From the IMG/VR virus record IMGVR_UViG_2627853872_000003: DNA of 45,982 bases. One strand, written 5' to 3'. Both the position numbers and the translations under genes were made by a program. This stretch comes from a virus (lineage: Duplodnaviria > Heunggongvirae > Uroviricota > Caudoviricetes). The notes under the pieces are model-generated. The model was not told where the DNA came from, made no database searches, and saw only the letters and a program-made list of their open reading frames with translations. Shown in pieces: positions 5,279-30,755 of the stretch. Every line of letters starts with the position of its first letter. Within the stretch, counting starts at the first letter, position 1.

Positions 5279-6213
5279 CAGTCCGATTCCCCGGAGTACG
5301 GCACCAACCCAGTCTCGCCGATTGCATCGTCGATGGTTCCAAGCAAATCGCCTGCAGTCTCGTTCGGTATCTCTATAACCGAGAACAAATCGATTGCGCC
5401 AACATCTTTAGCGTTGGCCAGACGCTACACCGCCTGATCAGCTGAAACCACACTCCGCGGCCAAACGCAGCACCTCACCTCGCCGAATTTAGCTGGGCAA
5501 TGTCGCTGACCAGTGATACCGTCAGCTCGTGACTTTGATACGCCTCGACCAGCGAGTTGCCGGGATGCAGACAGCATCACCGGCGGCTTTGTCGTGGCTG
5601 GAATCGGTCATCAAGACCCAAGAGCTCTCCACGGCCACGAGCCACGATTTCGGCCAGCCCAGATGCTTCCGGTCACCCCGATATGACCTATCCGCCCTCC
5701 CCATGGGCGAGCGCCCCGATCGGAAGCAAGGGCCAGGGAACAAATCTCATAAAAATCTCAATATTTGCGTTTCCGCTGCTAGGGATGTCCGCTGACACTC
5801 CCTTAGTTCAGCACGCTTTGAATTACCTTGCCACACAGCCGATTTAGGTAAATTGCGCTTTACAAGACTCGTATTCCGTAGCACCATCATGCTCAGCACG
5901 AACGAGAAGATCGCTCGATTCGCTGCCGCACGCGGGACGCTAAGGCGTTCTCCTGCCAGGACTTTGAAAACTCCAGAGTGTGTGATGCACCGCCCCTCAC
6001 GAGGGTCGATGAACAAGCCGTCTCGGCGCCCGGGGCTCCCAAGAGAGTCAATGACCGGTCAGCCAGTCGAGCATGCTCATCCTCAATCCTCCTGTCGGGG
6101 CGGTACGCCGGGCGCCGCCATGCGCCCGGCCCTCATGCCAGCTTTCCGTCAGGGAGCAGGCATGAGTTCCGTTTGGTTGATTTGGTGTAAATCCATTGCA
6201 ACCAAACGGATAT

Positions 6214-6287
6214 GCGCCTCTAGCTCATCTGGCCAGAGCACCTGACTCTTAATCAGGGGGTACGGGGTTCGAGACCCCGGGGGCGTA
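6214..6287 (+). tRNA. tRNA-Lys(CTT)
   Basis: Full cloverleaf; loop CT-CTT-AA. Confidence 0.9.
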
Positions 6288-6773
6288 CGTAGCGCGACGT
6301 GCGGTGAAGTAGACCGCACACGTACCAGCGGGTGGTGCCGGGCACTGGGTAGGCGGCCAGAGTGCCGCAACCGACCATCAATCGGCTCCTCCCCTCTCGC
6401 AGGTCTTCCGGTGTCAGAGCCCGGTTGGGGTGTGGGGACGGCACCGATCGGCGTGAGATATACCGCCAACCGTCCACAGCTCGATTGCTCCGATCCCACT
6501 CCTCCTTCGCAAGGCGGGGCGGCGCGGCATCTCACCGCGAAACGACAACCCGTTCACCCAGTAGGGGCACCCAACGGTGAGCGGCACGGTGCAGGGTAAG
6601 ACACCTTCGGGTGGGTCGAATCAGAGAGGGACACCGGCACACCGGTGTGGCGCCGTGGACAGACACGGGGGCGATAATGCAGCCCTTGACGGAGCAGGAG
6701 CCGCCTCGTTCTGGCGGCAGGCTAGAAATCCGAACACCGAGTGGTCCCGTCGGGCGCAACAATCCGGGACGCT
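6288..6773 (+). ncRNA. Candidate large structured ncRNA, family unknown
   Basis: No credible ORF; many perfect hairpins including a cUUCGg tetraloop (6602-6613). Confidence 0.5.
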
Positions 6774-6845
6774 GCGAGCGTGGTCCAATGGCTACGACCT
6801 CAGACTTCCAATCTGATGATGCGGGTTCGATTCCCGTCGCTCGCT
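6774..6845 (+). tRNA. tRNA-Gly(TCC)
   Basis: Cloverleaf; loop CT-TCC-AA. Confidence 0.9.
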
Positions 6846-6998
6846 CTTGGTGCCCACGACGGTGGGTAGGGACAGAGGACGGTCCCTTCGCCACGGGGTT
6901 CGATTCCCTGCGTTGGCTTCGGCCCGCGGTGCGGAACTGGTGATGCCAGCTGGTCGGTGCCAGGTACCGGATCACTGCCGACCTTCTCCAAACATCTT

Positions 6999-7083
6999 GG
7001 CCCTGTGGCGAAACATGGCAGCCGCGCCGGATTCAAACTCCGGTGTCCGACAGGACGTGTGGGTTCGATTCCCTCCAGGGCCA
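6999..7083 (+). tRNA. tRNA-Leu(CAA)
   Basis: Cloverleaf with long variable arm; loop TT-CAA-AC. Confidence 0.9.
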
Positions 7084-7101
7084 CCGCGTCCGAATGAACA
7101 A

Positions 7102-7173
7102 TGCCTTGTGGGGTAATCGGCAGCCCACTGGATTTTGGCTCCGGGAGTTCAGGTTCGAGCCCTGGCGAGGCAG
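7102..7173 (+). tRNA. tRNA-Gln(TTG)
   Basis: Cloverleaf; U1-A72; loop TT-TTG-GC. Confidence 0.9.
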
Positions 7174-7199
7174 CAGGTCGGCGGACCCGAAACGCACAT

Positions 7200-7271
7200 T
7201 GCCCGGTGGTCTAACGGCAGGACTCCTGATTCTGGATCAGGTCGGTGGAGGTTCGAATCCTCCCTGGGCAG
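7200..7271 (+). tRNA. tRNA-Gln(CTG)
   Basis: Cloverleaf; loop TT-CTG-GA. Confidence 0.9.
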
Positions 7272-7384
7272 CATCGCGAATCCCACTGTGCGGAGTTAAT
7301 CGCCCGCGTGGCAGTGGTCTTCGCAGGTGGCGTTCCAGGAGCATGTTCGACGCTATGGCCCCGTTCCAGGATCACCACCACAAC

Positions 7385-7459
7385 GCCCTGATAGCTCAGT
7401 CCGGCCAGAGCATCTGCCTTGTAAGCAGAGGGTCGCCGGTTCGAATCCGGCTTGGGGCT
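7385..7459 (+). tRNA. tRNA-Thr(TGT)
   Basis: Cloverleaf; loop CT-TGT-AA. Confidence 0.9.
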
Positions 7460-7479
7460 CTCCCCCACCTTCGGGTGAT

Positions 7480-7554
7480 GCCGCCATAGCTCAGTGGCAG
7501 AGCGTTTCCTTGGTAAGGAAAAGGTCTCGGGTTCAACCCCCGATGGTGGCTCCA
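7480..7554 (+). tRNA. tRNA-Thr(GGT), CCA encoded
   Basis: Cloverleaf; loop TT-GGT-AA. Confidence 0.9.
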
Positions 7555-7694
7555 CGGTTGTCGGTGACCACCCGCTGCGCGAGCGGAATGCGGAACCGTC
7601 AGTCCCGGCGCCCCCGCCCATGCAGGGGTCTTCGATGGCCGCGCCGTGCCGGGCAAGCGAAGGTGCACCTCGCCGGAAGGCATGGGTTTCCGAT

Positions 7695-7770
7695 GTGGAT
7701 GTAGCGCAGCTGGTAGCGCGTCTCGTTGCCAACGAGAAGGCCGCGGGTTCGAATCCCGTCTTCCACTCCA
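7695..7770 (+). tRNA. tRNA-Gly(GCC), CCA encoded
   Basis: Cloverleaf; loop TT-GCC-AA. Confidence 0.9.
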
Positions 7771-7904
7771 GCACTTCTCCCCTTCGCGGGAGGTGTGGGG
7801 GCTGGTTCCGGCCCCGGCGTCAACGGAGGGTTCGCGTGGACCCTGTACCGCCCGATTGAGGTTGGCGGACGCAGAGCGCAGGTAACCCCTGTGGCAGGAC
7901 ACAT

Positions 7905-7978
7905 GCCCCTCTGGCCCAACTGGCAGAGGCGTCGGCTTCAGGTGCCGAAGGTTCCCGGTTCGAATCCGGGGAGGGGTA
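7905..7978 (+). tRNA. tRNA-Leu(CAG) with short variable loop
   Basis: Cloverleaf; loop TT-CAG-GT; 5-nt variable region. Confidence 0.85.
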
Positions 7979-7984
7979 CAACGA

Positions 7985-8758
7985 GGCATGGCTCGATAAC
8001 CGGAGGTGACTCCGGGAAAGGTGGGTGTGACACCCCGCCGCCACATCTCTACGGGGATGTGGCACACCATGCACGGCTCCCGCAAGGAGTACCTGGGCAA
8101 CCGGGTGCCACAGCGGTCCGAGTTCGACGGCAGAAGGGACGGCGAGTGCTCACCTTCGCGCCGGCGCTACGCAGCGCCGGCACCGTCACGTGAACGAGGA
8201 TCGCCAGCGGGGTGCGAGGGAACACAAGTCCAAGCTCGCCAGGCGAGGGCGGTTCCCATGACCTCGGAATCCGGTGGGCGCATCGGTGCACGGCGAAGAG
8301 CGCAATGGCTTGGCGGCCAAGCGCGAGGGTGTGAAGCATTCTGTGGCTCAAAAGGTTACGGAACTTCGTGGGAAAGCACATCCTCAGTCAACAAGCACTA
8401 GCTCAATTGGCAGAGCAATCGTTTCTGGAACGGTAGGTCGCCGGTTCAAGTCCGGCGTGTTTATCCCAAGCGAAAGACTTTCCCTGCCACGGCTCGAAAG
8501 CGCCGTAATCCTCGGCCCTGCAAAGGGAACCGAGGCAGTTGTGAACTCGCAAGGTGATCAGCTGTCCGTGAGGCGGTAGAGCAATACAGAGGTTAGCTCC
8601 CTCTGTGCGAATCGAAACCTGCGGAGTAGGTCGTGGCATGACGAGTGGCTGCCGCAAGCAGCCCGGCGTGACGGTTACCAGTGGAAGCTGGATGGATAAG
8701 TCGGGAAACCATAATCCGATGAGAGACCGTTGCTTTGGGGCCTAATCTCAGCCCCAAA
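7985..8758 (+). ncRNA. Probable GOLLD lncRNA (~770 nt; ends approximate)
   Basis: ORF-poor, many GNRA hairpins; motifs I associate with GOLLD from memory: GGCTCAAAAGGT (8345-8356), GCGAAAGA (8470-8477), GCTGCCGCAAGCAGC, terminal 8-bp stem with loop CTAATCTCA (8734-8758); tRNA-array context is typical. Confidence 0.7.
8392..8464 (+). tRNA. tRNA-Gln(CTG)-like element nested in the putative GOLLD
   Basis: TAGCTC D-arm, loop TT-CTG-GA, T arm GCCGG-TTCAAGT-CCGGC; weak acceptor stem, no CCA. Confidence 0.65.
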
Positions 8759-8765
8759 TAACCAA

Positions 8766-8840
8766 TAGCTCGTAGCTCAATTGTGGCAGAGCGCGCGACT
8801 GTTAATCGCGTGGTTGGAGGTTCGACTCCTCCCGGGCTAG
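8766..8840 (+). tRNA. tRNA-Asn(GTT)
   Basis: Cloverleaf; loop CT-GTT-AA. Confidence 0.9.
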
Positions 8841-9004
8841 CGCTGCCGAGTAGGGACGCGTACCTACGGTGGTGACCGCTGAAAAGGAGCAGTGACCGTG
8901 CCCGGCTTGGTACGGCGGCGTGGGGGGCGCCGTAGTCCTCGGGGGTATCCCCCGGCACATCGGAAAGCGTCGAGTCCACAGTGTGTTCGACAGACACCTC
9001 TTTA

Positions 9005-9077
9005 GGGGGCTTAGCTCATCTGGTAGAGCGCCTGCCTTGCAAGCAGGAGGTGGCGGGTTCAAGCCCCGTAGCTTCCA
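9005..9077 (+). tRNA. tRNA-Ala(TGC)
   Basis: Cloverleaf; G3:U70. Confidence 0.9.
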
Positions 9078-9148
9078 CTCCCCGTCAGAATCGGGCGCAC
9101 CCGCGCCATCCCGGCCCGCCCCACAACACGGAAAGGAGGCGCGGCGCC

Positions 9149-9616
9149 ATGACAATGATCGTGCCCGCCCCCGCTGTGCGGGTGTTCAACGCCGACTATT
9201 CGTTCCTCGACACCGTGCGCTGGCAAGACGCGGTCGGCATGCTTCTACGCGACGTGGCGTACGCGCTCGAGGCCCACGTGCCCCCGCGCATCGTCCGCTC
9301 GCCGAACGCGGAGGTGGAGGTGCCCAAGTCGCTTCTGCTGACTCGGTACGCCCCTGTCCCCTACCGGCGTGATCCGGAGTTCGCCTCGCGTGCCGAGATT
9401 CTGCGCAGGGACAACTACCTGTGCCAGTACATCGGCTGCGGAGCCAAGGCCACCACGATCGATCACGTGTTCCCGCGTTCGCGCGGCGGCGCACCGTCAA
9501 CGTGGACGAACCAGGTAGGCGCGTGCGAGCCGTGCAACGGCCGCAAGGCAGACCGCACGCCGGAGGAAGCGGGTATGAAGCTGATCCGTGAACCGTTCCG
9601 ACCAGCGCACATCTGA
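9149..9616 (+). CDS. HNH endonuclease
   Basis: RRDNYLCQYIGC..TIDHVFPRSRGG..N...ACEPCNGRK; AAGGAGG RBS. Confidence 0.92.
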   Translation: MTMIVPAPAVRVFNADYSFLDTVRWQDAVGMLLRDVAYALEAHVPPRIVRSPNAEVEVPKSLLLTRYAPVPYRRDPEFASRAEILRRDNYLCQYIGCGAKATTIDHVFPRSRGGAPSTWTNQVGACEPCNGRKADRTPEEAGMKLIREPFRPAHI

Positions 9617-9660
9617 CGACGGGGAACAGACCCGTGACGGCTCGGAGAGACGAGTTTCCT

Positions 9661-9735
9661 GGTCCGTTCGTCTAGTTGGCCCAAGACACCTGGTTCTCAA
9701 CCAGAAGATCACCGGTTCGAATCCGGTACGGACTA
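9661..9735 (+). tRNA. tRNA-Glu(CTC)
   Basis: Cloverleaf; loop TT-CTC-AA. Confidence 0.9.
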
Positions 9736-9872
9736 CGTTAAGTGGCGTTGAAATCGGGTTTGATTCCCGCAGGCCGATGGTGTGCCTGGTTGGTGTGGTG
9801 CCGCACGTCATGTGAGAGCCGTGAAAATCGGCGAAAACTCTACCGCTGCTGATCAATCCGCAAGTAGAGCAT

Positions 9873-9948
9873 GGTCCCGAAGCTGAACTGGTTCAAGCGC
9901 TCGGTTGAAGCCCAAGAGATGGCGGTTCGATTCCGTCCGGGACCACCA
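9873..9948 (+). tRNA. tRNA-Phe(GAA), CCA encoded, atypical (A8, anticodon-stem mismatch)
   Basis: Perfect acceptor stem; loop TT-GAA-GC. Confidence 0.8.
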
Positions 9949-9950
9949 GT

Positions 9951-10038
9951 GTCGATGTGGCGGAACGGAATACGCACTAGCTTGAGGTGCTAGCGCCCTA
10001 TTACGGGTATGCAGGTTCGACTCCTGTCATCGACACCA
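9951..10038 (+). tRNA. tRNA-Leu(GAG), CCA encoded
   Basis: Cloverleaf with long variable arm. Confidence 0.9.
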
Positions 10039-10039
10039 A

Positions 10040-10112
10040 GCCGCGGTAGCTCAGTAGAGAGAGCACCTGCCTACGAAGCAGGGGGCCGGGGGTTCAAATC
10101 CCTCTCGCGGTA
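10040..10112 (+). tRNA. tRNA-Arg(ACG)
   Basis: Cloverleaf; loop CT-ACG-AA. Confidence 0.9.
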
Positions 10113-10133
10113 CTGAGACTGACAGTCTCTCTA

Positions 10134-10207
10134 CGACTCATAGCTCAGCTGGTTAGAGCGCCGCTCTGATAAGGCGGAGGTCTGGGGTTCAAGTCCCTGT
10201 GAGTCGA
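10134..10207 (+). tRNA. tRNA-Ile(GAT)
   Basis: Cloverleaf; loop CT-GAT-AA. Confidence 0.9.
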
Positions 10208-10252
10208 CAGCCGCTATTCTCTGCAAGGGCACCCAGCGTCAGGAGAGTTCCT

Positions 10253-10618
10253 GTGGGTAATCACCTCCCGGAGACGAAACGTCGGCTTCAAGCCGAATAT
10301 CGATCACGCAATGTAGAGAAGCTACGTTGCGCAAGCAGACAGCGGCGAGCTGCAATCAAAGATGAGGCCCTAACGCAATACGGCAGATGCTGTGCCTGTT
10401 GCGGATTCGACAATCCTTTGGCACTCGTTGTAGACCACGTGGATGACAACGGGGCTGAGGAGCGAAAGGCTCTCGGCGGGCAGCATTTCGCAGGATGGAA
10501 CTTCTACTCACATTTGCGGAGGCAAGGGTGGCCCGCTGGCTATCAGACTCTCTGCGCGAATTGCAACATGATCAAGCAGCAGACCTTGCTGCAGAATGCC
10601 GGTGTAGCTCAGCGGTAG
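10253..10618 (+). CDS. HNH-like endonuclease; stop lies inside tRNA-Asp
   Basis: CACCG..LVVDHV..LCANCNMIK; AGGAG RBS before GTG 10253. Confidence 0.8.
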   Translation: MGNHLPETKRRLQAEYRSRNVEKLRCASRQRRAAIKDEALTQYGRCCACCGFDNPLALVVDHVDDNGAEERKALGGQHFAGWNFYSHLRRQGWPAGYQTLCANCNMIKQQTLLQNAGVAQR

Positions 10619-10669
10619 AGCGTCCGCCTGTCGAGCGGAGGGCCGCGGGTTCAAGTCCCGTCACTGGCG
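10598..10669 (+). tRNA. tRNA-Asp(GTC)
   Basis: Cloverleaf; G73. Confidence 0.9.
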
Positions 10670-10697
10670 CCCGTGGTGCATTTTGAGCACCGTTTTC

Positions 10698-10774
10698 AGT
10701 CTCGTAGCTCAGTTGGAAGAGCACCTGGTTTACACCCAGGGTTGTCGGGGGTTCGAATCCCTCCGGGACTACCA
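10698..10774 (+). tRNA. tRNA-Val(TAC), CCA encoded
   Basis: Cloverleaf; loop TT-TAC-AC. Confidence 0.9.
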
Positions 10775-10775
10775 T

Positions 10776-10856
10776 GCCGGCACGGCGCAGAGGCGAGGCG
10801 CAGCGGCCTGTAAAGCCGTTCTTTCGGGTGAGTGGGTTCAATTCCTTCTGCCGGCA
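10776..10856 (+). tRNA. tRNA-Tyr(GTA), C8
   Basis: Cloverleaf with extended variable region; loop CT-GTA-AA. Confidence 0.85.
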
Positions 10857-10887
10857 CCGGGCCCGCGTCGGCCTCAACGACGCGAAA

Positions 10888-10961
10888 CGGGATGTGGCGC
10901 AGCTTGGTAGCGCATCTGCTTTGGGAGCAGAGGGTCGCACGTTCAAATCGTGTCATCCCGA
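10888..10961 (+). tRNA. tRNA-Pro(TGG)
   Basis: Cloverleaf; C1-G72. Confidence 0.9.
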
Positions 10962-10975
10962 CAAACAAGATTTCA

Positions 10976-11048
10976 GCCCGCGTAGCTCAGTGGATAGAGC
11001 GCCTGCCTCCGAAGCAGGAGGCCCCGAGTTCAACTCTCGGCGTGGGTA
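10976..11048 (+). tRNA. tRNA-Arg(CCG)
   Basis: Cloverleaf; loop CT-CCG-AA. Confidence 0.9.
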
Positions 11049-11071
11049 CTATTCCTGATCAGGGAGAACAC

Positions 11072-11145
11072 TGCCCCTATGGTGTAAGTTGGTAGCACTC
11101 TTGGCTTTTACCCTTGAAACGTCGGTTCGAACCCGGCTGGGGCAC
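11072..11145 (+). tRNA. Degenerate tRNA-Lys(TTT)
   Basis: D and T arms intact; two U-U mismatches in anticodon stem; acceptor register irregular. Confidence 0.6.
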
Positions 11146-11195
11146 GGTGAGAACGACACAAATTTTGCGCCGAACTCTTTGTCGGATGCAGTTTT

Positions 11196-11627
11196 ATGAT
11201 CGAGACCATGTGCAAGTGTGGCGAATGTAAGACCTGCAAGCGACGAGTAGTCGATCGCCGTAGGTACGAGAATAATCCCCTTCGCCGCGAGATGATCGCA
11301 GACAGGTGCGAGCGTAACCGTGCTGCGAAGCGTGCAATAGTCGAGCAGTACCTTGTCACCCATCCGTGCGTGGATTGCGGTGAGGCTGATCCGATTGTTC
11401 TTGAATTCGACCACGTTCGGGGCGAAAAGGCATCCAACATCTCGGACTTAGTCGTATCCGGCGGCCTGAGGAAGTTGATGGATGAGATTGCGAAGTGTGA
11501 TGTCCGCTGCGCCAACTGTCATCGACGAGCTACCTATATGCGACGACTGAAGGATGCGGGGCTCGGGCGGTACAGCAATCCGTACGAACTCCAATCCCAA
11601 CGAGTTTCACATGCGTCCGTGGTCTAG
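11196..11627 (+). CDS. HNH-like endonuclease; stop lies inside tRNA-Trp
   Basis: PCVDCGEADPIVLEFDHVRG..KCDVRCANCHRR. Confidence 0.85.
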   Translation: MIETMCKCGECKTCKRRVVDRRRYENNPLRREMIADRCERNRAAKRAIVEQYLVTHPCVDCGEADPIVLEFDHVRGEKASNISDLVVSGGLRKLMDEIAKCDVRCANCHRRATYMRRLKDAGLGRYSNPYELQSQRVSHASVV

Positions 11628-11685
11628 CGGCTAAGACGCCGGTCTCCAAAACCGGAAGACGCAGGTTCAAGTCCTGCCGGGCGTG
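11613..11685 (+). tRNA. tRNA-Trp(CCA)
   Basis: Cloverleaf; G73. Confidence 0.9.
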
Positions 11686-11751
11686 CAAATATCCGACCAT
11701 CGAACGGTGGGCGGATCCAGAGGTCGCGGCGACGGTCGCAGCCTCGTCCAT

Positions 11752-11824
11752 GGCGTCGTGCTGTGATGGCTAGGCACCCGGGTTTTCACCTCGGGACGCG
11801 CGGGTTCAATTCCCGTCGGCGCTA
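11752..11824 (+). tRNA. tRNA-Glu(TTC)
   Basis: Cloverleaf with weak D arm; loop TT-TTC-AC. Confidence 0.8.
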
Positions 11825-11998
11825 CTCGATTTTTCGGCGTGTCGCGACGCCTGGCTGGCCCTTGACGCCGACCTCGAACAAGCTGAATCCGCGAGATCCC
11901 GTGTCAACGCCAACCCCCCGTTATCACCTGGCGAAGGCATCTCCACGACGCCGCATAGTCTCGGACGAGAGGTGACCTGCACGGGATCTCGCGCATAT

Positions 11999-12070
11999 GC
12001 CCCTGTAGCTCAGTGGACAGAGCGGCACGGTCCTAACGTGACGGCCGGCGGTTCGAATCCGTCTGGGGCG
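11999..12070 (+). tRNA. tRNA-Arg(CCT), atypical
   Basis: Loop GT-CCT-AA (G32); acceptor mismatch and shortened T stem. Confidence 0.7.
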
Positions 12071-12205
12071 CGGGCGGCACGACGATGTCGCACACCTCTC
12101 GCATGAGCAGTCTCGGGGCTAGCACCGAACTGCGAGTAATGGCCCGCACAATCTTCGGGAATGATTGGTGCACGGCTTTAGCGGGCAGCATCGGGCGTGA
12201 GTATT

Positions 12206-12281
12206 GGGCTGTTGGCACAGTTGGTAGCACGCTTCCGTGGCGCGGGAGAGGTCACCGGTTCGATCCCGGTACAGTCCACCA
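12206..12281 (+). tRNA. tRNA-Ala(GGC), CCA encoded
   Basis: G3:U70; loop GT-GGC-GC; D stem GCAC/GCAC partly mismatched. Confidence 0.8.
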
Positions 12282-12388
12282 CTTCGATAATCGGCGTGTC
12301 GCGCGGTCGCAGTGGATTCGAGAGTTCTTGCAGCGGAGGCTATATGCCAGTGCTCGAACCGCACCAATCGCCGAACCTTGGAGGGCAT

Positions 12389-12592
12389 ATGAAACTCTGC
12401 GTCACCGCTGTGATCGCGGCGGCACCCTTGTTGATCTTCGCTCCATCCGCCAGCGCGGGGCCGCGCTGCCTCCCAGACCAAACAGCCTGCTGCCCCAGCG
12501 GCTACATAGTGGCCGAACACCCCAGCGGTGCGATGACGTGCTCTCCTGACGTCGATGCCCAGTCCGCCGCCCGAAACAGCATCCCGATTTGA
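12389..12592 (+). CDS. Small secreted Cys-rich protein
   Basis: GGAGG RBS; signal peptide ending ASA-G; 4 Cys in mature part. Confidence 0.7.
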   Translation: MKLCVTAVIAAAPLLIFAPSASAGPRCLPDQTACCPSGYIVAEHPSGAMTCSPDVDAQSAARNSIPI

Positions 12593-12652
12593 TCGGTAGA
12601 CACTCCACCTCCGCAGTGTGCGCCGCTGCGATTCAGAGGTGTCAGGCGCAGG

Positions 12653-12727
12653 AGCGGAGTAGGGCAGCTCGGTCAGCCCGCGTGGCTCATAACCACGAAG
12701 TCGCAGGTTCGAATCCTGCCTCCGCCA
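12653..12727 (+). tRNA. tRNA-Met(CAT), A1xC72 mismatch (initiator-like)
   Basis: Cloverleaf; loop CT-CAT-AA. Confidence 0.85.
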
Positions 12728-12794
12728 CGACGTCCCACATGAGCTGCAACAAGGGATAACAGAGGGCACGACAACACCGATGGTGGTATGAGAC

Positions 12795-13040
12795 ATGGCT
12801 AATGATCCTGGCCGACGAACTGCGGAAAAACGCTCGTGGCGTCGTGAGATTGACGTGGAGGCAACAGCCCAGGTCGAGCCGTTCAACCCGTACGCGCACT
12901 GCATAAGCCTGGTGGAGTGCCGCACAACCTGCGTCTATGTGGGCCAGGGGTGTTCAGAGGTGCACAGGAATCACTATCGAGGTCTCACTGCTGATGAAGG
13001 GGTTCCACCACCCCTAACTCAGCGAGTCAACGCTCCGTAG
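12795..13040 (+). CDS. Hypothetical protein; stop lies inside tRNA(CAT)
   Basis: Fills an inter-tRNA gap; no recognisable domain. Confidence 0.4.
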   Translation: MANDPGRRTAEKRSWRREIDVEATAQVEPFNPYAHCISLVECRTTCVYVGQGCSEVHRNHYRGLTADEGVPPPLTQRVNAP

Positions 13041-13103
13041 CTCAGTTGGTAGAGCTCCGCACTCATAATGCGGAGGTCGCGGGTTCAAGTCCCGCCGGAG
13101 CAA
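13031..13103 (+). tRNA. tRNA(CAT), Met or Ile2, C1xA72 mismatch
   Basis: Cloverleaf; loop CT-CAT-AA. Confidence 0.85.
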
Positions 13104-13185
13104 CGAGTTCTAGCCCCTTGGGGGCCTGAACATTTGGAGGGTGCTTCCGACGAATGGCGCCGTCGATGTGGCGCTGTTCTGCCCT

Positions 13186-13635
13186 TCAGAACTGAATGTT
13201 GGCGCTCACCGAGTATCGATCGAACTGGGAATGTCCGAGCAGGCCGTCGAGAAGCCGGGCACGCTGCATCTCGGGCTCGCTGACCTTCATCCCGATCACG
13301 CCTTTGCCGTCTTCGCTTATGGTGTTTCCGCTCGGCAGAACACAGCGACCGCCATCGACGCTCAAAACAAGATCACGCTGAATGGGCACACCGTTGTATC
13401 GGATGTCGAGCCAGTGGCCGTAAATCTTCTTATCTGGGAATCCGCCAGATTCGGACCATGTCTCGGTCCAAGGCTCACCATCGAGATGGTCCTTGCCCCA
13501 GGCAAGGCTAATTGCGGCGTCCTCGTGAAACACGTACAGCTGCCGGTGACCATCCTCAGTGGTCACATTCTCGACCTTCGTCCAGTCGTCTGGAGAACTC
13601 GCCTCAACCTTTGTGAGGATCGAAAAGTAGTTCAC
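13186..13635 (-). CDS. Hypothetical protein antisense to the array
   Basis: Globular, protein-like 149-aa ORF. Confidence 0.75.
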   Translation of the reverse strand: MNYFSILTKVEASSPDDWTKVENVTTEDGHRQLYVFHEDAAISLAWGKDHLDGEPWTETWSESGGFPDKKIYGHWLDIRYNGVPIQRDLVLSVDGGRCVLPSGNTISEDGKGVIGMKVSEPEMQRARLLDGLLGHSQFDRYSVSANIQF

Positions 13636-13743
13636 GGCTGAAATCTAACCAGGACCAGTCGGATATCACCTGGCTTACGCGAATCTGGCCTGTGCACCTT
13701 TCTTCATCACATCCTGAACCGCCGGATAGCCTCCGGCAGAAAT

Positions 13744-13833
13744 GGAAGACCCACCCGAGGGCTGGCGACGGGCGCTGTCTTGAAAACAGTTGGGGCCGAG
13801 AGGCCCGTGTCGGTTCGATCCCGACGTCTTCCG
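13744..13833 (+). tRNA. tRNA-Ser(TGA), atypical D region
   Basis: Acceptor GGAAGAC/GTCTTCC, long variable arm, G73. Confidence 0.85.
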
Positions 13834-13968
13834 CGCAACCCAACCGGCTCACAACCGCACGGGAACCGCTCGGCTGAGATGCCGGGTGCGGGTGGCTCCG
13901 CCTGCGTGTCCGGGGACAGACGGCGCGTAGACAGCGGCCCGGGCTGGGCCTGTCCCCCGGCTCGCCAT

Positions 13969-14044
13969 GGCGGCGTTAGCTCAGCGGCAGAGCCCCGGTT
14001 TGTGGAACCGGTAGTCGTCGGTTCGATCCCGACACGTCGCCCCA
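13969..14044 (+). tRNA. tRNA-His(GTG) with G-1:C73 and CCA
   Basis: Cloverleaf; His identity pair encoded. Confidence 0.92.
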
Positions 14045-14125
14045 CTGTTCGGTGCGCACTTGGCGGCTAAGCCCACAATCGCGCCGGACACAACCAACCA
14101 CGATGTTGCGACCGATCCTTAGGAC

Positions 14126-14416
14126 ATGCCAACCACCATCTACCCGACCATCCACGGTGATGATCGGAGTCTCGAAGCGATAATCGCCTCGTTCACCGTC
14201 AACGCGACGCTACGTAGCTATCTCGAGGATTTCTTGCCGGGACGACGTGACTTCAACCGGCCATCACACCTCGTCAAGTTTGACGGCGGTTGGATTCTCG
14301 TCTTTTACGTGGACACAGCTGACGACACCGGGTATCTCAAATTCGATTGCTCCGGTGGATCGTATGAGTTCATCGACGCCTACAGAGCACATGCCCTGAC
14401 GGGACGCTGGCTCTGA
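14126..14416 (+). CDS. Hypothetical protein
   Basis: AGGA RBS; protein-like composition. Confidence 0.65.
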   Translation: MPTTIYPTIHGDDRSLEAIIASFTVNATLRSYLEDFLPGRRDFNRPSHLVKFDGGWILVFYVDTADDTGYLKFDCSGGSYEFIDAYRAHALTGRWL

Positions 14417-14526
14417 GACGAGGTCAGCATGATGCACTGGACGGAACCTGACAGGTAAACGTTGTCGACCAGGGTTAGTGCACTAGGCGAGGATCGGGCG
14501 CAGTGCGACCGCGTCTGCACGAGCAT

Positions 14527-14599
14527 GCCTCCGTGGCGCAACGGATAGCGCACCGGCTTTCTACTCCGATGGTTGCCGGTTCGAATCCGGCCGGGGGCA
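14527..14599 (+). tRNA. tRNA-Arg(TCT), weak anticodon stem
   Basis: Good acceptor, D and T arms; 3 of 5 anticodon-stem pairs. Confidence 0.7.
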
Positions 14600-14679
14600 C
14601 CGAGTTCGACACCGACACCGGCGTGTCGTCACCGTCTCGGCACAACAACAGAGCGTGCCGGACAGCATCGAAAGATCCA

Positions 14680-14757
14680 CGGGCTGTGGGAAAGCTTGGT
14701 CAATCCGCCTGGCTGGGGGCCAGGAAATCGCGCGTTCGAATCGCGCCAGCCCGACCA
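14680..14757 (+). tRNA. tRNA-Pro(GGG), CCA encoded
   Basis: Cloverleaf; loop CT-GGG-GG. Confidence 0.9.
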
Positions 14758-14803
14758 GCGTGGCGGAAAGCCTGTCGCGCGAAAACACACGAAGGGAGGA
14801 GCC

Positions 14804-15994
14804 GTGAGCACACAATTCCCCGTCACGATGCGCGGGGCAGACAACGTCGCACTCTGGGCGTACGAGCATGAGATCGAGCCGGCCGCCCTGAACCAGTTGC
14901 GCAACATCGCCGCTCTCGGGCCGGTTGCCAAGGTAGCAGTGATGCCAGATGTCCACTTGGGCAAGGGCGCCACGGTCGGATCCGTCATCGCGATGCGAGA
15001 TGCGGTCTCCCCCTCGGCGGTCGGCGTCGATATCGGTTGTGGTGTCTGCGGCGTCCGAACGTCTCTTTCAGCCCACGATCTCCCGGATGATCTGTCCGGG
15101 CTGCGCTCCGCGGTGGAGGCAGCGATTCCGGTCGGGTTCAACTCGCACGAGCGGGCCGTGAACGTCCAGCGTCTCGGGCTGCGCACTGCTGACCACGATC
15201 GACTCTGGCAGTCGGCCAAGGCGATTTACGCCAACGTTGACCCGTTCGGTGGTCGTGCCCCGCGCCAGCTCGGCACGCTCGGTGGCGGCAACCATTTCCT
15301 CGAGGTGTGCCTGGACGGCGAGGACCGCGTATGGCTTACCCTCCATTCAGGATCGCGTAACGTCGGCAAGGAGCTGGCTGAGCGACACATCACGGTCGCA
15401 AAGGGCCTGCCGCACAACGCAGATCTACCGGATCGAGACCTGGCGTTCTTCTACGCGAACACCCCGGAGATGGACGCTTACCTCTACGACCTGACGTGGG
15501 CGCAGCAGTACGCCGCGCTGTCGAGGCAGGTGATGATGGCGCTGTTCCGCACCGTACTCAGCGAGGCCTTCGCAGGAGTGCGGTTCACCGACGAGATCAA
15601 CGTGCACCACAACTACGTGCGCCGCGAGACTGTTGGCGGTGAGGAGTTCATCGTCACCCGCAAGGGGGCTATTCGCGCAGGATCTGACGAACTGGCGCTG
15701 ATCCCCGGCAGCATGGGTACGGGCTCGTACGTGGTGCGCGGTTTGGGTAACCCTGAGTCGTTGTTCTCAGCCTCGCACGGGGCGGGTCGCAAGATGAGCC
15801 GCTCCGCCGCCAAACGGACATTCACCGTCGAGGATCTGGCAGAACAGACCGCCGGCATCGAGTGCCGAAAGGACGCTGGTGTCGTCGACGAGATTCCCGG
15901 GGCCTACAAGGACATCCACGGTGTCATCGCCGCTCAGGACAACCTCGTCGCCGTAGTGGCGCACCTGCGCACCATCCTCTGTGTGAAGGGCTAA
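14804..15994 (+). CDS. rtcB: RtcB RNA 3'-phosphate/5'-OH ligase
   Basis: MPDVH, GVDIGCG, LGTLGGGNHF, HSGSR, HHNY, IPGSMG, SHGAGR, DEIPGAYKDI; GGGAGGA RBS before GTG 14804. Confidence 0.97.
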   Translation: MSTQFPVTMRGADNVALWAYEHEIEPAALNQLRNIAALGPVAKVAVMPDVHLGKGATVGSVIAMRDAVSPSAVGVDIGCGVCGVRTSLSAHDLPDDLSGLRSAVEAAIPVGFNSHERAVNVQRLGLRTADHDRLWQSAKAIYANVDPFGGRAPRQLGTLGGGNHFLEVCLDGEDRVWLTLHSGSRNVGKELAERHITVAKGLPHNADLPDRDLAFFYANTPEMDAYLYDLTWAQQYAALSRQVMMALFRTVLSEAFAGVRFTDEINVHHNYVRRETVGGEEFIVTRKGAIRAGSDELALIPGSMGTGSYVVRGLGNPESLFSASHGAGRKMSRSAAKRTFTVEDLAEQTAGIECRKDAGVVDEIPGAYKDIHGVIAAQDNLVAVVAHLRTILCVKG

Positions 15995-16166
15995 GTCGCA
16001 TAGCGGAAACCCCTGATGGGTTGAGACAGCATGCGCGAGGTGCGGCACGTCGATGCCAGCGTGTCGTACCTCGTGCTTGGCGACAGTGCGGCGGCATGGC
16101 ACCGTTGTGACAAGCACAGGCGCGTGCCTCGTCATCTGATGCAGACCCACGACAGGAGAGCCGATC

Positions 16167-16394
16167 GTGAATATGCCGTCCAGCAACAAGGTCATCGAAG
16201 AGCTCGGGGACTATGTCAACGACCCGGCCAATGCTTCAGTTATGGATGTCTTCCGGGAGATCGGCGAGCGGGGACGGATGTTGCACACCGCGGAGATCGC
16301 TTCTGATCCGGAGTGGTTCGCACGGAGATTCGTTGCGTGGATTCGAGCAGGGGCGCCGGCATGCAGCAGACAAGCTCTCAACCCCGACAACTAG
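16167..16394 (+). CDS. Hypothetical protein
   Basis: AGGAG RBS; protein-like. Confidence 0.5.
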   Translation: MNMPSSNKVIEELGDYVNDPANASVMDVFREIGERGRMLHTAEIASDPEWFARRFVAWIRAGAPACSRQALNPDN

Positions 16395-16483
16395 CTCAAC
16401 AGTCCAACTGACGAGTTGTGTGCTCTGCCACCACGCCGTGTACCAGCGTGGGCACGGAATCACTTCAATGTGCGGAGACAAGA

Positions 16484-16723
16484 ATGCGGAAACCCGATGG
16501 TCGATCAATGGCGGCCCTCAAGAAACTTGAGCAGCAGAACAACCGACTCAAGTCCTCCTATCACACCGCGAGCGAGAAGCGTGCGATGAAGGCCGCACGC
16601 GAGAAGCGGCAAGCTACGCGAGCCGAAGCTAGTGCGGAAGAGCTTCAGGAGATGTTGGACGCCGATATACGTTGGCTCGACAGTCTTGGCCCCAGGCTCA
16701 GCCAAAAAAGGTCTGACACCTAG
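16484..16723 (+). CDS. Small basic helical protein
   Basis: GGAG RBS; charged coiled-coil-like sequence. Confidence 0.5.
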   Translation: MRKPDGRSMAALKKLEQQNNRLKSSYHTASEKRAMKAAREKRQATRAEASAEELQEMLDADIRWLDSLGPRLSQKRSDT

Positions 16724-16788
16724 CCTTCGGCAACACTTCCCAACTTGAACATTGAGCTGGCCCAGCTCCACCCGCGTCAGCGGGTTCT

Positions 16789-16862
16789 GTCTCCGTGGCC
16801 GAGTGGTTAGGCAGCGGCCTGCAAAGCCGTCTACGCCGGTTCAAATCCGGCCGGAGACTCCA
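16789..16862 (+). tRNA. tRNA-Cys(GCA), CCA encoded
   Basis: Cloverleaf; U73. Confidence 0.92.
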
Positions 16863-16884
16863 CACTGGTCCACCGGCCAGCAGC

Positions 16885-16958
16885 GCCCCCATAGCTCAGT
16901 TGGCCAGAGCGGCTCACTCGTAATGAGCAGGTCACCGGTTCGATTCCGGTTGAGGGCT
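16885..16958 (+). tRNA. tRNA-Thr(CGT)
   Basis: Cloverleaf; loop CT-CGT-AA. Confidence 0.9.
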
Positions 16959-16984
16959 CAAACGGACACGTGCAGTGTCTGATT

Positions 16985-17058
16985 CGGGGTATGGGAAAGC
17001 TTGGCAATCCGCCTCGTTCGGGACGAGGAGACCGGCGGTTCAAATCCGTCTACCCCGA
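16985..17058 (+). tRNA. tRNA-Pro(CGG)
   Basis: Cloverleaf; loop TT-CGG-GA. Confidence 0.9.
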
Positions 17059-17136
17059 CGTTGGTTTTGCACGCTACCTAGCAGTATCTTTTGGATAGAT
17101 GATAGTATCTGCCAAACAGATACCGGAGGAGTGGAC

Positions 17137-17772
17137 ATGACCTACCCCGATACGAGCATCGCGCACCCCACCGATATCGTCCGCGAGGCTGATGCGCCTT
17201 GGCATACGGGCGACGTGTTCAGCCTTCGCGGCTTGGTCGACGCCGCAGTGCTGATCCGCCCCTTGTCCAGACACGTTTACGCATCGCGATGGAGCCACGA
17301 CGGTAGAGCAACGGCGATCGTCGCCGATATAGCGGTGCTAGAGGACCACAACCATGCCGCCAGCCTCTACAGCCAAGTCACCATTTTCCAACCGAACGTT
17401 GTCAAGGCGCTGTGTGCGGTTCTGGACAATCCGCAGGTTTTCACCGTCGCCGGCGTGGTGTCCACGATCGGCGATAGTGAGCGGCGCGCCTTGGTGCTAG
17501 CTCCACTACCGGAGGCTCTGGTCCCTTTCGCCGCTGCAGAAGCAGCAGCGCGGGACTGGGACTATCCCCCGGACTACGACGCAATCGTGGGCCGCAAGAT
17601 CGCCGCTCTGCGCAGCGATAAAGGACTTCCCCAGGCCGCCCTAGCGGGCGTATTGGGTGTCATGCAGTCGGGCGTATCCGACATTGAATCCGGACGACGG
17701 TCATTGGACCTCAAGAAGTTGTATGCCATCGCATCTGCACTGAGCGTGCCAGTGCATGAGCTGTTGCCCTGA
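17137..17772 (+). CDS. Protein with C-terminal XRE HTH
   Basis: KIAALRSDKGLPQAALAGVLGVMQSGVSDIESGRR; GGAGGA RBS. Confidence 0.85.
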   Translation: MTYPDTSIAHPTDIVREADAPWHTGDVFSLRGLVDAAVLIRPLSRHVYASRWSHDGRATAIVADIAVLEDHNHAASLYSQVTIFQPNVVKALCAVLDNPQVFTVAGVVSTIGDSERRALVLAPLPEALVPFAAAEAAARDWDYPPDYDAIVGRKIAALRSDKGLPQAALAGVLGVMQSGVSDIESGRRSLDLKKLYAIASALSVPVHELLP

Positions 17773-17783
17773 CGGGCGCAACA

Positions 17784-17811
17784 ATGACATCCGATTGCAT
17801 TGCGATATAAC
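17784..17811 (+). promoter_or_regulatory. Possible sigma-A promoter for tRNA-Ser(GCT)
   Basis: ATGACA-16 nt-TATAAC ending 7 nt before the tRNA. Confidence 0.35.
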
Positions 17812-17817
17812 AAATTT

Positions 17818-17903
17818 GGAGACGTGGCAGAGCGGCGAATGCAGCGCGTTGCTAGCGCGTAGTCGACCTACATCGGCCGAGGGTTCGAGTCCCTCCGTCT
17901 CCG
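17818..17903 (+). tRNA. tRNA-Ser(GCT)
   Basis: Cloverleaf, long variable arm, G73. Confidence 0.88.
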
Positions 17904-18847
17904 CGGGCATCACACGCTTTGGGGTTCTTGTCCGCCAGCTACCCTCGCCGTACTGTTTGGCCCATGGCTAACGTACTCGGAGGACGGTGGTGATGGGTCG
18001 ACCGTTTCCTGAGGCGGAACGGGCATTGGCGCTGGATACGTCGGTGCTGGCGCCGCCGCTGGCTGCTGAGCGGTTGGGGCGCACGGTGGGCAGCGTCCGT
18101 ACTTTCGTTGCAGCCGCAAGATCCTGAACGATCGCGATAACGGGTTCACCGTCGAGGATCGCCGCCGTACCGACAAGATTGCTGTTGCGCCTGTTGCGCC
18201 TGCTGCCCCAGAGACCCATCAAGTGCCGTACTGACGAACACGACAAACAATTCACTCAGAGACAAAGGTCAAGTAATGCGTCGATTTGAAAGGTACTGGG
18301 CATGGCTCACCGCCATCGGGGCGCAGATACTAATCGTGGCCAACGTCATTGATCATGACTGGTTCGGTGTTGTGATCGGGGTCTTGGCGCTGCCGGTGGG
18401 TCTGTGGTGGGTGTACGACAACCGGAACTCGGAGAGAACCGCCGCCGAACAAGAACAGCTGGCCGCTGAATGGACCGACGCCAAGGTGCAGGATGTGATC
18501 GCAGGTCATCATGATCAAGTCAGCGCGGTGAAGGCGATGCGAGCAGCTGATCCCCGACTCGGGTTGGTCACCGCCACTCGACTTGTACGGCGGGCCAGAG
18601 CGCCACAAGAAACCACCCATGATCCCAATGCCCAGCGAGGCGGTAGCAACTCTCGGCCCGATGCTGACCGGCGTTGACGCCGGCAACAACACACCGCATC
18701 TTCGCGCATTTTCGCACTGAACACCACCTGTCTACACCCGAACGAAACACGTATCGGCAAGCAACAGACATTTTCTGGATGGTCGAGGAGGCTTCGAGTC
18801 CCTCCGGCTCCGCCGGCATCACACACTCTGGGGTTCTTGTTCGCCAG
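17884..18847 (+). repeat. 55-bp imperfect direct repeat (17884-17938 / 18793-18847) containing the tRNA-Ser 3' end
   Basis: 50/55 identical by manual alignment. Confidence 0.85.
18276..18677 (+). CDS. Membrane protein with 2 TM helices
   Basis: Two N-terminal hydrophobic helices plus a soluble helical domain. Confidence 0.75.
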   Translation: MRRFERYWAWLTAIGAQILIVANVIDHDWFGVVIGVLALPVGLWWVYDNRNSERTAAEQEQLAAEWTDAKVQDVIAGHHDQVSAVKAMRAADPRLGLVTATRLVRRARAPQETTHDPNAQRGGSNSRPDADRR

Positions 18848-30664: not shown

Positions 30665-30737
30665 GCCCTCGTAGCTCAGGGGATAGAGCACGGCTCTCCT
30701 AAAGCCGGTGTCGCAGGTTCGAATCCTGCCGAGGGCA
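30665..30737 (+). tRNA. tRNA-Arg(CCT), stand-alone canonical copy
   Basis: Flawless cloverleaf; loop CT-CCT-AA. Confidence 0.95.
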
Positions 30738-30755
30738 CAAGACTTTCAGGGCACC

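What the first reader, a model, noticed from the sequence alone, without database searches (positions are those of the whole stretch)
10253..13040. Three ORFs, two of them HNH nucleases, borrow their stop codon from inside the next tRNA
Seen: TAG stops at 10616-10618 (tRNA-Asp nt 19-21), 11625-11627 (tRNA-Trp nt 13-15) and 13038-13040 (tRNA-CAT nt 8-10). Known: RNase P cuts at tRNA nt +1, and non-stop mRNAs are tmRNA-tagged for degradation. Inference: tRNA maturation would strip these mRNAs of their stops, so nuclease is made only when processing is blocked. That would be a processing-sensing switch, or a self-limiting trick of tRNA-targeting homing endonucleases.
Basis: partly seen in the sequence, partly recalled or inferred. 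Interest (0 to 1): 0.7.

Follow-up and report, generated by a model that had tools for sequence, protein, structure and literature searches.

The report
Selfish nuclease genes ending inside tRNAs
Two optional, probably selfish DNA-cutting genes in a mycobacterial spare-tRNA cluster really do end inside the next tRNA gene, as about two thirds of their tRNA-abutting relatives do; this looks like a side effect of riding tightly packed with the tRNA gene they target, not a switch that senses tRNA processing.

Summary
All three stops lie inside tRNAs as stated. The window is a mycobacterial-type tRNA array (38 tRNAs, GOLLD, RtcB). Both HNH genes (phrog_2255) are optional cassettes: 92-97% identical sister arrays lack one or the other, and homology resumes at, or inside, the overlapped tRNA. 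The overlap is a family trait: 50 of 74 tRNA-abutting relative clusters, from many phyla, end inside the tRNA, against 2 of 24 other tRNA-adjacent genes. It is not required: 21 of 74 stop earlier, as do HNH2's nearest relatives and one ORF3 homolog. In-frame stops before the tRNA occur at the out-of-frame rate (odds ratio 0.99), so there is no sign of selection against an own stop. The frame that stops earliest in the tRNA is preferred, so full-length protein probably matters. HNH1's clade tracks tRNA-Asp (12/15 against 0/101), and 8 relatives carry a broken same-anticodon tRNA upstream. Best reading: tRNA-targeted homing cassettes that carry a replacement tRNA; RNase P/tmRNA damping is a plausible, untested side effect. 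Earlier scan notes saw the same layout on other DNA.

The parts
10134..10207 (+). tRNA-Ile(GAT), upstream of HNH1; its allele differs from those of HNH1-less sisters
   Evidence: the X18 contig departs from the window at 10180
10241..10245 (+). Shine-Dalgarno AGGAG, 7 nt before the GTG of HNH1; predicted in a hairpin, but not significantly
   Evidence: fold z -1.3
10253..10618 (+). HNH1: 121-aa phrog_2255 HNH nuclease gene (CxxC, DH, CANCN motifs); last 6 codons and the stop lie in tRNA-Asp; optional cassette
   Evidence: absent in L328, L339-L341 and runs X18 and X24; model pLDDT 90.5
10598..10669 (+). tRNA-Asp(GTC); supplies TAG at nt 19-21. Its D arm and anticodon arm (about nt 11-47) differ from the Asp allele of three HNH1-less sisters, in which the HNH1 frame would not stop inside the tRNA
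11073..11144 (+). atypical, low-scoring tRNA-Lys(TTT) upstream of HNH2; the same allele also occurs in HNH2-less arrays
   Evidence: Rfam 38.4 bits
11196..11627 (+). HNH2: 143-aa phrog_2255 HNH nuclease gene (CVDC, EFDH, CANCH motifs; second ATG at 11208); last 4 codons and the stop lie in tRNA-Trp; optional cassette replacing the Lys-Trp spacer
   Evidence: absent in L327 and L339-L341; right junction 2 nt before Trp +1
11613..11685 (+). tRNA-Trp(CCA); supplies TAG at nt 13-15; same allele in most HNH2-less sisters
12795..13040 (+). ORF3: 81-aa protein of no known family, under purifying selection; stop at tRNA nt 8-10, but one homolog has its own stop
13031..13103 (+). tRNA(CAT), Met or Ile2; supplies U8-A9-G10 as the stop of ORF3
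9149..9616 (+). internal control: the conserved McrA-like HNH (Pfam HNH_5) of these arrays, a different family, stops about 45 nt before tRNA-Glu
6214..17903 (+). host tRNA array: 37 co-oriented tRNAs, with GOLLD RNA 8324-8754 and the RtcB gene (ORF 14573-15994)

Best explanation
HNH1 and HNH2 are free-standing, tRNA-gene-targeted mobile HNH (homing-type) endonuclease cassettes. SHOWN: they are optional, their junctions fall at or within tRNA genes, their clades track tRNA isotypes, and some relatives sit between a tRNA broken at the anticodon loop and an intact, diverged tRNA with the same anticodon. INFERRED: the nuclease cuts the DNA of a sensitive tRNA gene in an empty array, and repair copies in the HNH gene together with a replacement tRNA or tRNA 5' half. 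Gene and tRNA travel as one compact unit: the tRNA starts a median 48 nt after the catalytic core, and conserved tRNA bases supply a stop for free, so selection for an own stop is relaxed and only frames that stop early are favoured. INFERRED: full-length protein is made from the nascent or unprocessed precursor; RNase P cleavage then ends production from that transcript (non-stop fragment, tmRNA). That would be a tolerated damping, not a switch. ORF3 is an unrelated small gene with an incidental, non-conserved overlap.
For: Reciprocal empty alleles L327 and L328 and doubly empty L339-L341, X18 and X24. Cassette GC 55% against 61.5% for the window. 101 of 139 HNH2-family and 14 of 16 close HNH1 clusters lie next to a tRNA on either side or convergent, while 0 of 58 distant HNH1-like clusters do. 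HNH1 clade beside tRNA-Asp 12/15 against 0/101. One clade (SH-aLRT 96) stays with Gly(TCC) in both orientations. Same-anticodon 5' remnants ending at nt 36-40 in 5/34 plus 3/38 loci. In-frame stop rate 17/318 against 31/576 out of frame, higher (0.08-0.12) in homologs without a downstream tRNA. Earliest-stopping frame used in 27/44, and about 11/17 isotype groups (p 0.008). Precedent: T4 SegB cuts inside tRNA genes (PMC2330249).
Against: No cleavage or homing was tested. Fold matches are weak (top VIA hits ZRANB3 HNH Z 4.4 and T4 EndoVII Z 3.7; Foldseek none). No tRNA remnant is detectable upstream of either window gene. L328 lacks HNH1 yet has the window's Asp allele. HNH2 has no cassette-specific tRNA allele. 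Remnants are seen in only 8 of 72 loci, and the control region gave 1 of 31. Overlaps exceed the geometric expectation (50 observed, 42 expected, P 0.018; HNH2 family 45 against 34), which leaves room for some selection.
Confidence: 0.66

Rival explanations
1. The same mobile cassettes, but the overlap is positively selected as a self-limiting device: RNase P cleavage plus tmRNA tagging keeps a toxic nuclease to a few molecules per transcript.
For: The overlap is 68% in this family against 8-25% in other tRNA-adjacent genes. It persists through frame changes within clades (Pro TGG nt 8/21/88; Arg TCG nt 8/13/22). There is a modest excess over the geometric null. Homing endonucleases are often damped by RNA processing (PMC2988022).
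Against: Own stops are not depleted (OR 0.99, CI 0.54-1.82). Supported sister pairs differ in state (L299 inside and L321 before, SH-aLRT 98). Convergent copies overlap the antisense tRNA equally often (5/9).
Confidence: 0.2
2. A processing-sensing switch: nuclease is made only when RNase P processing is blocked, in the manner of ArfA.
For: The stops lie 3' of the RNase P site. No terminator-like site on the + strand separates the genes from the tRNAs. The array is transcribed on the + strand in a sister strain. The arfA precedent (PMC10107115).
Against: The overlap is lost in close relatives and in an ORF3 homolog. The genes are optional inserts, not array core genes. The preference for early-stopping frames implies normal termination there. 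From general knowledge, not tested: a ribosome coupled to RNA polymerase can reach nt 8-21 before the tRNA is fully made and folded.
Confidence: 0.04
3. Domesticated partner of the array: the HNH proteins act in defence or tRNA turnover (for example as RNA nucleases paired with RtcB) and sit by their tRNA for functional reasons.
For: RtcB is in the array. An HNH gene is co-induced with the Anabaena trn operon (PMC8421152). Isotype fidelity could reflect an RNA substrate.
Against: The conserved array HNH is the other, McrA-like gene (9149-9616), which has its own stop. HNH1 and HNH2 are patchy, insert at different junctions (Val-Tyr in L341) and also flank lone tRNA genes in assemblies from unrelated phyla.
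Confidence: 0.08

Closest known systems
Phage T4/T6 SegB (PMC2330249; PMC13096335)
   Same: Free-standing endonuclease gene inside a tRNA cluster, absent from related phages; SegB cuts within tRNA genes and drives inheritance of the region.
   Different: SegB is GIY-YIG and recognises the T-loop motif of many tRNAs. These are small HNH proteins whose clades follow particular isotypes, whose stops often lie in the tRNA, and whose relatives show breaks at the anticodon loop. No activity shown here.
Mycobacterial tRNA array units (PMC5966550; PMC12803027)
   Same: Array with a ~430-nt structured RNA, XRE regulator and HNH gene; syntenic with pCBMA213_1. The papers call HNH genes the most widespread array CDS.
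   Different: The conserved array HNH is most likely the McrA-like gene (inference). Word searches of these two papers found no mention of stop codons inside tRNAs or of optional phrog_2255 cassettes.
Mobile-ORF (mORF) hybrid genes of fungal mitochondria: Allomyces atp6; Glomus atp6, atp9, cox2, nad3 (PMC3630166)
   Same: The endonuclease inserts into its target gene carrying a foreign replacement part and strands the native part as a relic.
   Different: Those targets are protein genes and the enzymes are LAGLIDADG or GIY-YIG. Here the target is a bacterial or phage tRNA gene, and the relic is seen in relatives, not in the window.
E. coli arfA non-stop mRNA regulation (PMC10107115)
   Same: RNA processing before the stop codon makes a non-stop message that tmRNA represses.
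   Different: arfA uses RNase III or a terminator and has a clear feedback logic. Here the cut would be by RNase P, the overlap is labile, and no repression has been shown.

Membership tests
HNH (His-Me finger) endonuclease, phrog_2255 | profile match and conserved D-H and C-x-N-C/H motifs | tested here: met
   H62, N103, N105 invariant in HNH1; D72, H73, N107, H109 invariant in HNH2
HNH (His-Me finger) endonuclease, phrog_2255 | structural match to solved HNH domains | tested here: inconclusive
   The top three VIA hits for HNH1 are HNH proteins, but Z is only 3.3-4.4; Foldseek gave nothing significant for HNH2
free-standing homing endonuclease (SegB-like) | optional presence, with empty alleles in close relatives | tested here: met
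free-standing homing endonuclease (SegB-like) | association with a conserved target gene | tested here: met
   tRNA adjacency and isotype fidelity
free-standing homing endonuclease (SegB-like) | resident allele differs from the sensitive allele | tested here: inconclusive
   HNH1: Asp differs from L339-L341 but not from L328; HNH2: Lys and Trp alleles are shared with empty arrays
free-standing homing endonuclease (SegB-like) | site-specific cleavage of the empty allele and biased inheritance | not testable with these tools
   needs biochemistry and crosses
mORF-type replacement cassette | stranded native gene part plus a carried replacement part | tested here: inconclusive
   met in 8 of 72 relatives; no remnant in the window's spacers
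ArfA-type non-stop regulation | processing site before the stop is conserved across homologs | tested here: not met
   21/74 clusters and close relatives have their own stop; no depletion of own stops
ArfA-type non-stop regulation | tmRNA tagging, and induction when the pathway fails | not testable with these tools
   the only raw-read RNA run came from a strain lacking both HNH genes
mycobacterial tRNA array unit | dense co-oriented tRNAs with structured RNA, HNH and XRE genes; synteny with described arrays | tested here: met

The most novel reading that the evidence does not exclude
A widespread family of small HNH elements homes into tRNA genes at the anticodon loop in an isotype-specific way, brings its own recoded replacement tRNA (thereby reshuffling tRNA alleles in phages, plasmids and chromosomes), and uses RNase P cleavage plus tmRNA tagging as a selected limiter of its own nuclease.
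Probability: 0.2. Interest if true: 0.72.

Novelty: new variant of a known kind. Interest (0 to 1): 0.42.

Why it matters
It gives a testable mechanism for why phage and plasmid tRNA arrays are mosaics of swapped, recoded tRNA alleles. It supplies natural filled and empty allele pairs for a direct homing assay. It also warns annotators: such genes are missed, for example the copies in phages ET08 and Lacusarx have no annotated CDS. If the RNase P/tmRNA damping is real, it would be a new route to non-stop regulation; the sequence data here show only that it is tolerated.

Tried and rejected
1) 'HNH2 travels with a private tRNA-Lys allele': suggested by L327, rejected because empty L339 and L341 carry the same allele. 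2) tRNA remnants in the window's upstream spacers: none significant. 3) RBS-hiding hairpins: HNH1 z -1.3, HNH2 none. 4) Stop completion by polyadenylation, as in mitochondria: the cut ends would read AAU, CAU and AA, so no stop can form. 5) ORF3 as a shadow of an antisense ORF: the reverse frames hold stops in all six copies over the stretch read. 6) Same amino acid up- and downstream of HNH: 11/38 against a background of 58/292, not significant. 7) RNA evidence: X24 lacks both HNHs; X16 contigs span the HNH-tRNA junctions but cannot show strand or exclude DNA. 8) HNH1 was not found in 401 sampled actinomycete genomes, and HNH2-family matches in 5 of 401 Mycobacteriaceae; HNH2 had no match in the plasmid collection. 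9) PDB sequence search gave nothing significant. 10) No sigma-70-like promoter in the array. 11) The Pope 2014 cluster M paper could not be read; two searches for a paper on this family trait returned none, which does not prove it is undescribed. 12) No whole genome is held for the window. 13) The HNH2 tree is a quick tree on 122 columns with many open forks.

Full report
Observation. ORF1 (10253-10618, SD AGGAG 7 nt upstream) and ORF2 (11196-11627) match the HNH family phrog_2255 with intact motifs. ORF3 has four database homologs and dN/dS near 0.15-0.2 against diverged sisters, so it is a real gene. Finding a stop once a frame has entered a tRNA is unremarkable: 54 of 114 tRNA frames in the window hold one, 36 within 25 nt.

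Context. The window holds 38 tRNAs, GOLLD, RtcB, an XRE-type gene and a separate McrA-like HNH. It is syntenic with the arrays of Mycolicibacterium plasmid pCBMA213_1 and a Tsukamurella plasmid, that is, a mycobacterial tRNA array unit as described in PMC5966550. Public isolates with assemblies of about 6 Mb hold the stretch. Stranded reads from a sister strain lie almost wholly in one direction, which in the usual library means + strand RNA, and include ORF3; that strain lacks both HNH genes.

Empty alleles. L327 keeps HNH1 and lacks HNH2, with homology resuming 2 nt before Trp +1. L328 keeps HNH2 and lacks HNH1, with homology resuming 4 nt before Asp +1. L339-L341 lack both, and L341 has another member of the family between Val and Tyr with its own stop. 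Against L339, HNH2 replaces only the Lys-Trp spacer. For HNH1, three empty arrays carry an Asp allele that differs in the D and anticodon arms (about nt 11-47) and agrees at both ends; a contig of run X18 likewise rejoins the window at 10641. In that empty-type allele the HNH1 frame has no stop inside the tRNA. The stop therefore lies in the part of tRNA-Asp that seems to travel with HNH1. L328, which has the empty spacer with the window's Asp, is the exception and may be a recombinant or a loss (inference).

Family survey. About 340 loci from viral, metagenome, genome and phage collections were analysed. At 75% identity, 101 of 139 HNH2-family clusters and 14 of 16 close HNH1 clusters lie beside a tRNA gene (upstream, downstream, both, or convergent), across Actinomycetota, Chloroflexota, Acidobacteriota, Vulcanimicrobiota, candidate phyla and phages; none of 58 distant HNH1-like clusters do. 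Of 74 clusters with a same-strand tRNA within 110 nt of the catalytic core, 50 stop inside it, 3 straddle its start and 21 stop before it. Other conserved tRNA-adjacent genes in the same loci overlap in 2 of 24 cases (13 of 52 unfiltered). The overlap is thus a trait of this family, not a quirk of the window, but it is not obligatory.

Why the overlap. The tRNA begins a median 48 nt after the CANC motif, about where homologs without a downstream tRNA end; a geometric null expects 42 overlaps against 50 observed (P 0.018). Between the functional end and tRNA +1, in-frame stops occur at 17/318 codons and out-of-frame stops at 31/576 (OR 0.99, CI 0.54-1.82), while homologs with no downstream tRNA stop at 0.08-0.12 per codon. 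This fits relaxed selection: neither a need for an own stop nor avoidance of one. Among overlapping genes the frame used is the earliest-stopping of the three in 27 of 44, and in about 11 of 17 isotype groups (p 0.008), so termination at the borrowed stop appears to matter. Convergent copies run into the antisense tRNA in 5 of 9 cases. Close relatives differ in state: LilhomieP inside a weakly called tRNA, Lewan and M. sphagni with own stops, ET08 reading through tRNA-Trp, and L299 inside against L321 before. ORF3's homolog in L341 has its own TGA.

What the genes are. HNH1's clade sits next to tRNA-Asp in 12 of 15 clusters, on either side, against 0 of 101 for the HNH2 family (related clusters are not fully independent). 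One supported clade stays with Gly(TCC) in both orientations. Earlier scan notes suggested looking for broken tRNAs; tested here, 5 of 34 and 3 of 38 loci have a 5' tRNA remnant upstream of the HNH that resembles the intact downstream tRNA in its anticodon and ends at nt 36-40, and 4 of 33 upstream-type loci have a 3' remnant downstream (control region 1 of 31). This is the footprint expected of an endonuclease that breaks a tRNA gene near the anticodon loop and inserts with a replacement, like fungal mORFs (PMC3630166) and, for tRNA targets, T4 SegB (PMC2330249). Cleavage itself is not shown, and the structure searches are only weakly informative.

Regulation. If co-transcribed, RNase P cleavage at +1 would leave a stop-less HNH fragment, and tmRNA tagging would follow, as for arfA (PMC10107115). 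From general knowledge, not tested here, a ribosome following RNA polymerase can reach nt 8-21 before the tRNA is complete, so at least the first round can give full-length protein. The likely effect is a cap on protein per transcript. RNA processing of segB and segG does not stop them from homing (PMC2988022).

Verdict. It is a new variant of a known kind. This scan had noted the same layout on other DNA.

Noticed in passing
window 8324-8754: GOLLD RNA (Rfam RF02032, 200 bits) with an embedded tRNA-like element at 8392-8464, called Gln(CTG) here but Lys(TTT) at the same place in L341.
   Followed up: no
window 11073-11144: tRNA-Lys(TTT) is atypical, with a poorly paired anticodon stem, and alternates among sister arrays with a canonical allele independently of HNH2.
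   Followed up: partly
window 10598-10669; L004, L006, L083, L085, L087, L090, L330: tRNA-Asp genes beside HNH1-family genes often read GTC-GA (G37) instead of the usual GTC-AC or GTC-AA; possibly an immunity change. Many adjacent ones do not, and no test was run.
   Followed up: partly
HNH2 clade: window, L342, L343, L345, L243: The nearest relatives follow tRNA-Pro(TGG) and often precede tRNA-Trp(CCA); the two anticodons are reverse complements, so one DNA motif could match both. Speculative.
   Followed up: no
window 17879-17938 and 18788-18847: The 3' end of tRNA-Ser(GCT) and about 35 nt after it are repeated about 0.9 kb downstream at about 90% identity, like an attachment-site scar.
   Followed up: no
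window 12069-12290 versus L327, X18, X24: tRNA-Ala(GGC) and flanks are replaced in some sisters by about 0.9-1.0 kb holding two genes; other sisters have both.
   Followed up: no
window 30665-30738: An isolated second tRNA-Arg(CCT), 12.7 kb beyond the array.
   Followed up: no
window 5853-6245: A 130-codon frame, also seen in L339, runs into tRNA-Lys(CTT) to nt 30; probably not a real gene, not tested.
   Followed up: partly
L342:4025-4282 (phage LilhomieP gene 105): An annotated non-HNH phage gene also ends 10 nt inside tRNA-Leu.
   Followed up: no
L004, L186, L194, L199, L237, L332: Further HNH-like families in tRNA arrays also tend to end inside tRNAs (8 of 13 clusters), whereas the McrA-like HNH never did.
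   Followed up: partly
L343:2342-2923 (phage ET08); L346 (phage Lacusarx): HNH2-family ORFs between tRNAs have no annotated CDS in these public records; in ET08 the frame reads through the whole of tRNA-Trp.
   Followed up: partly
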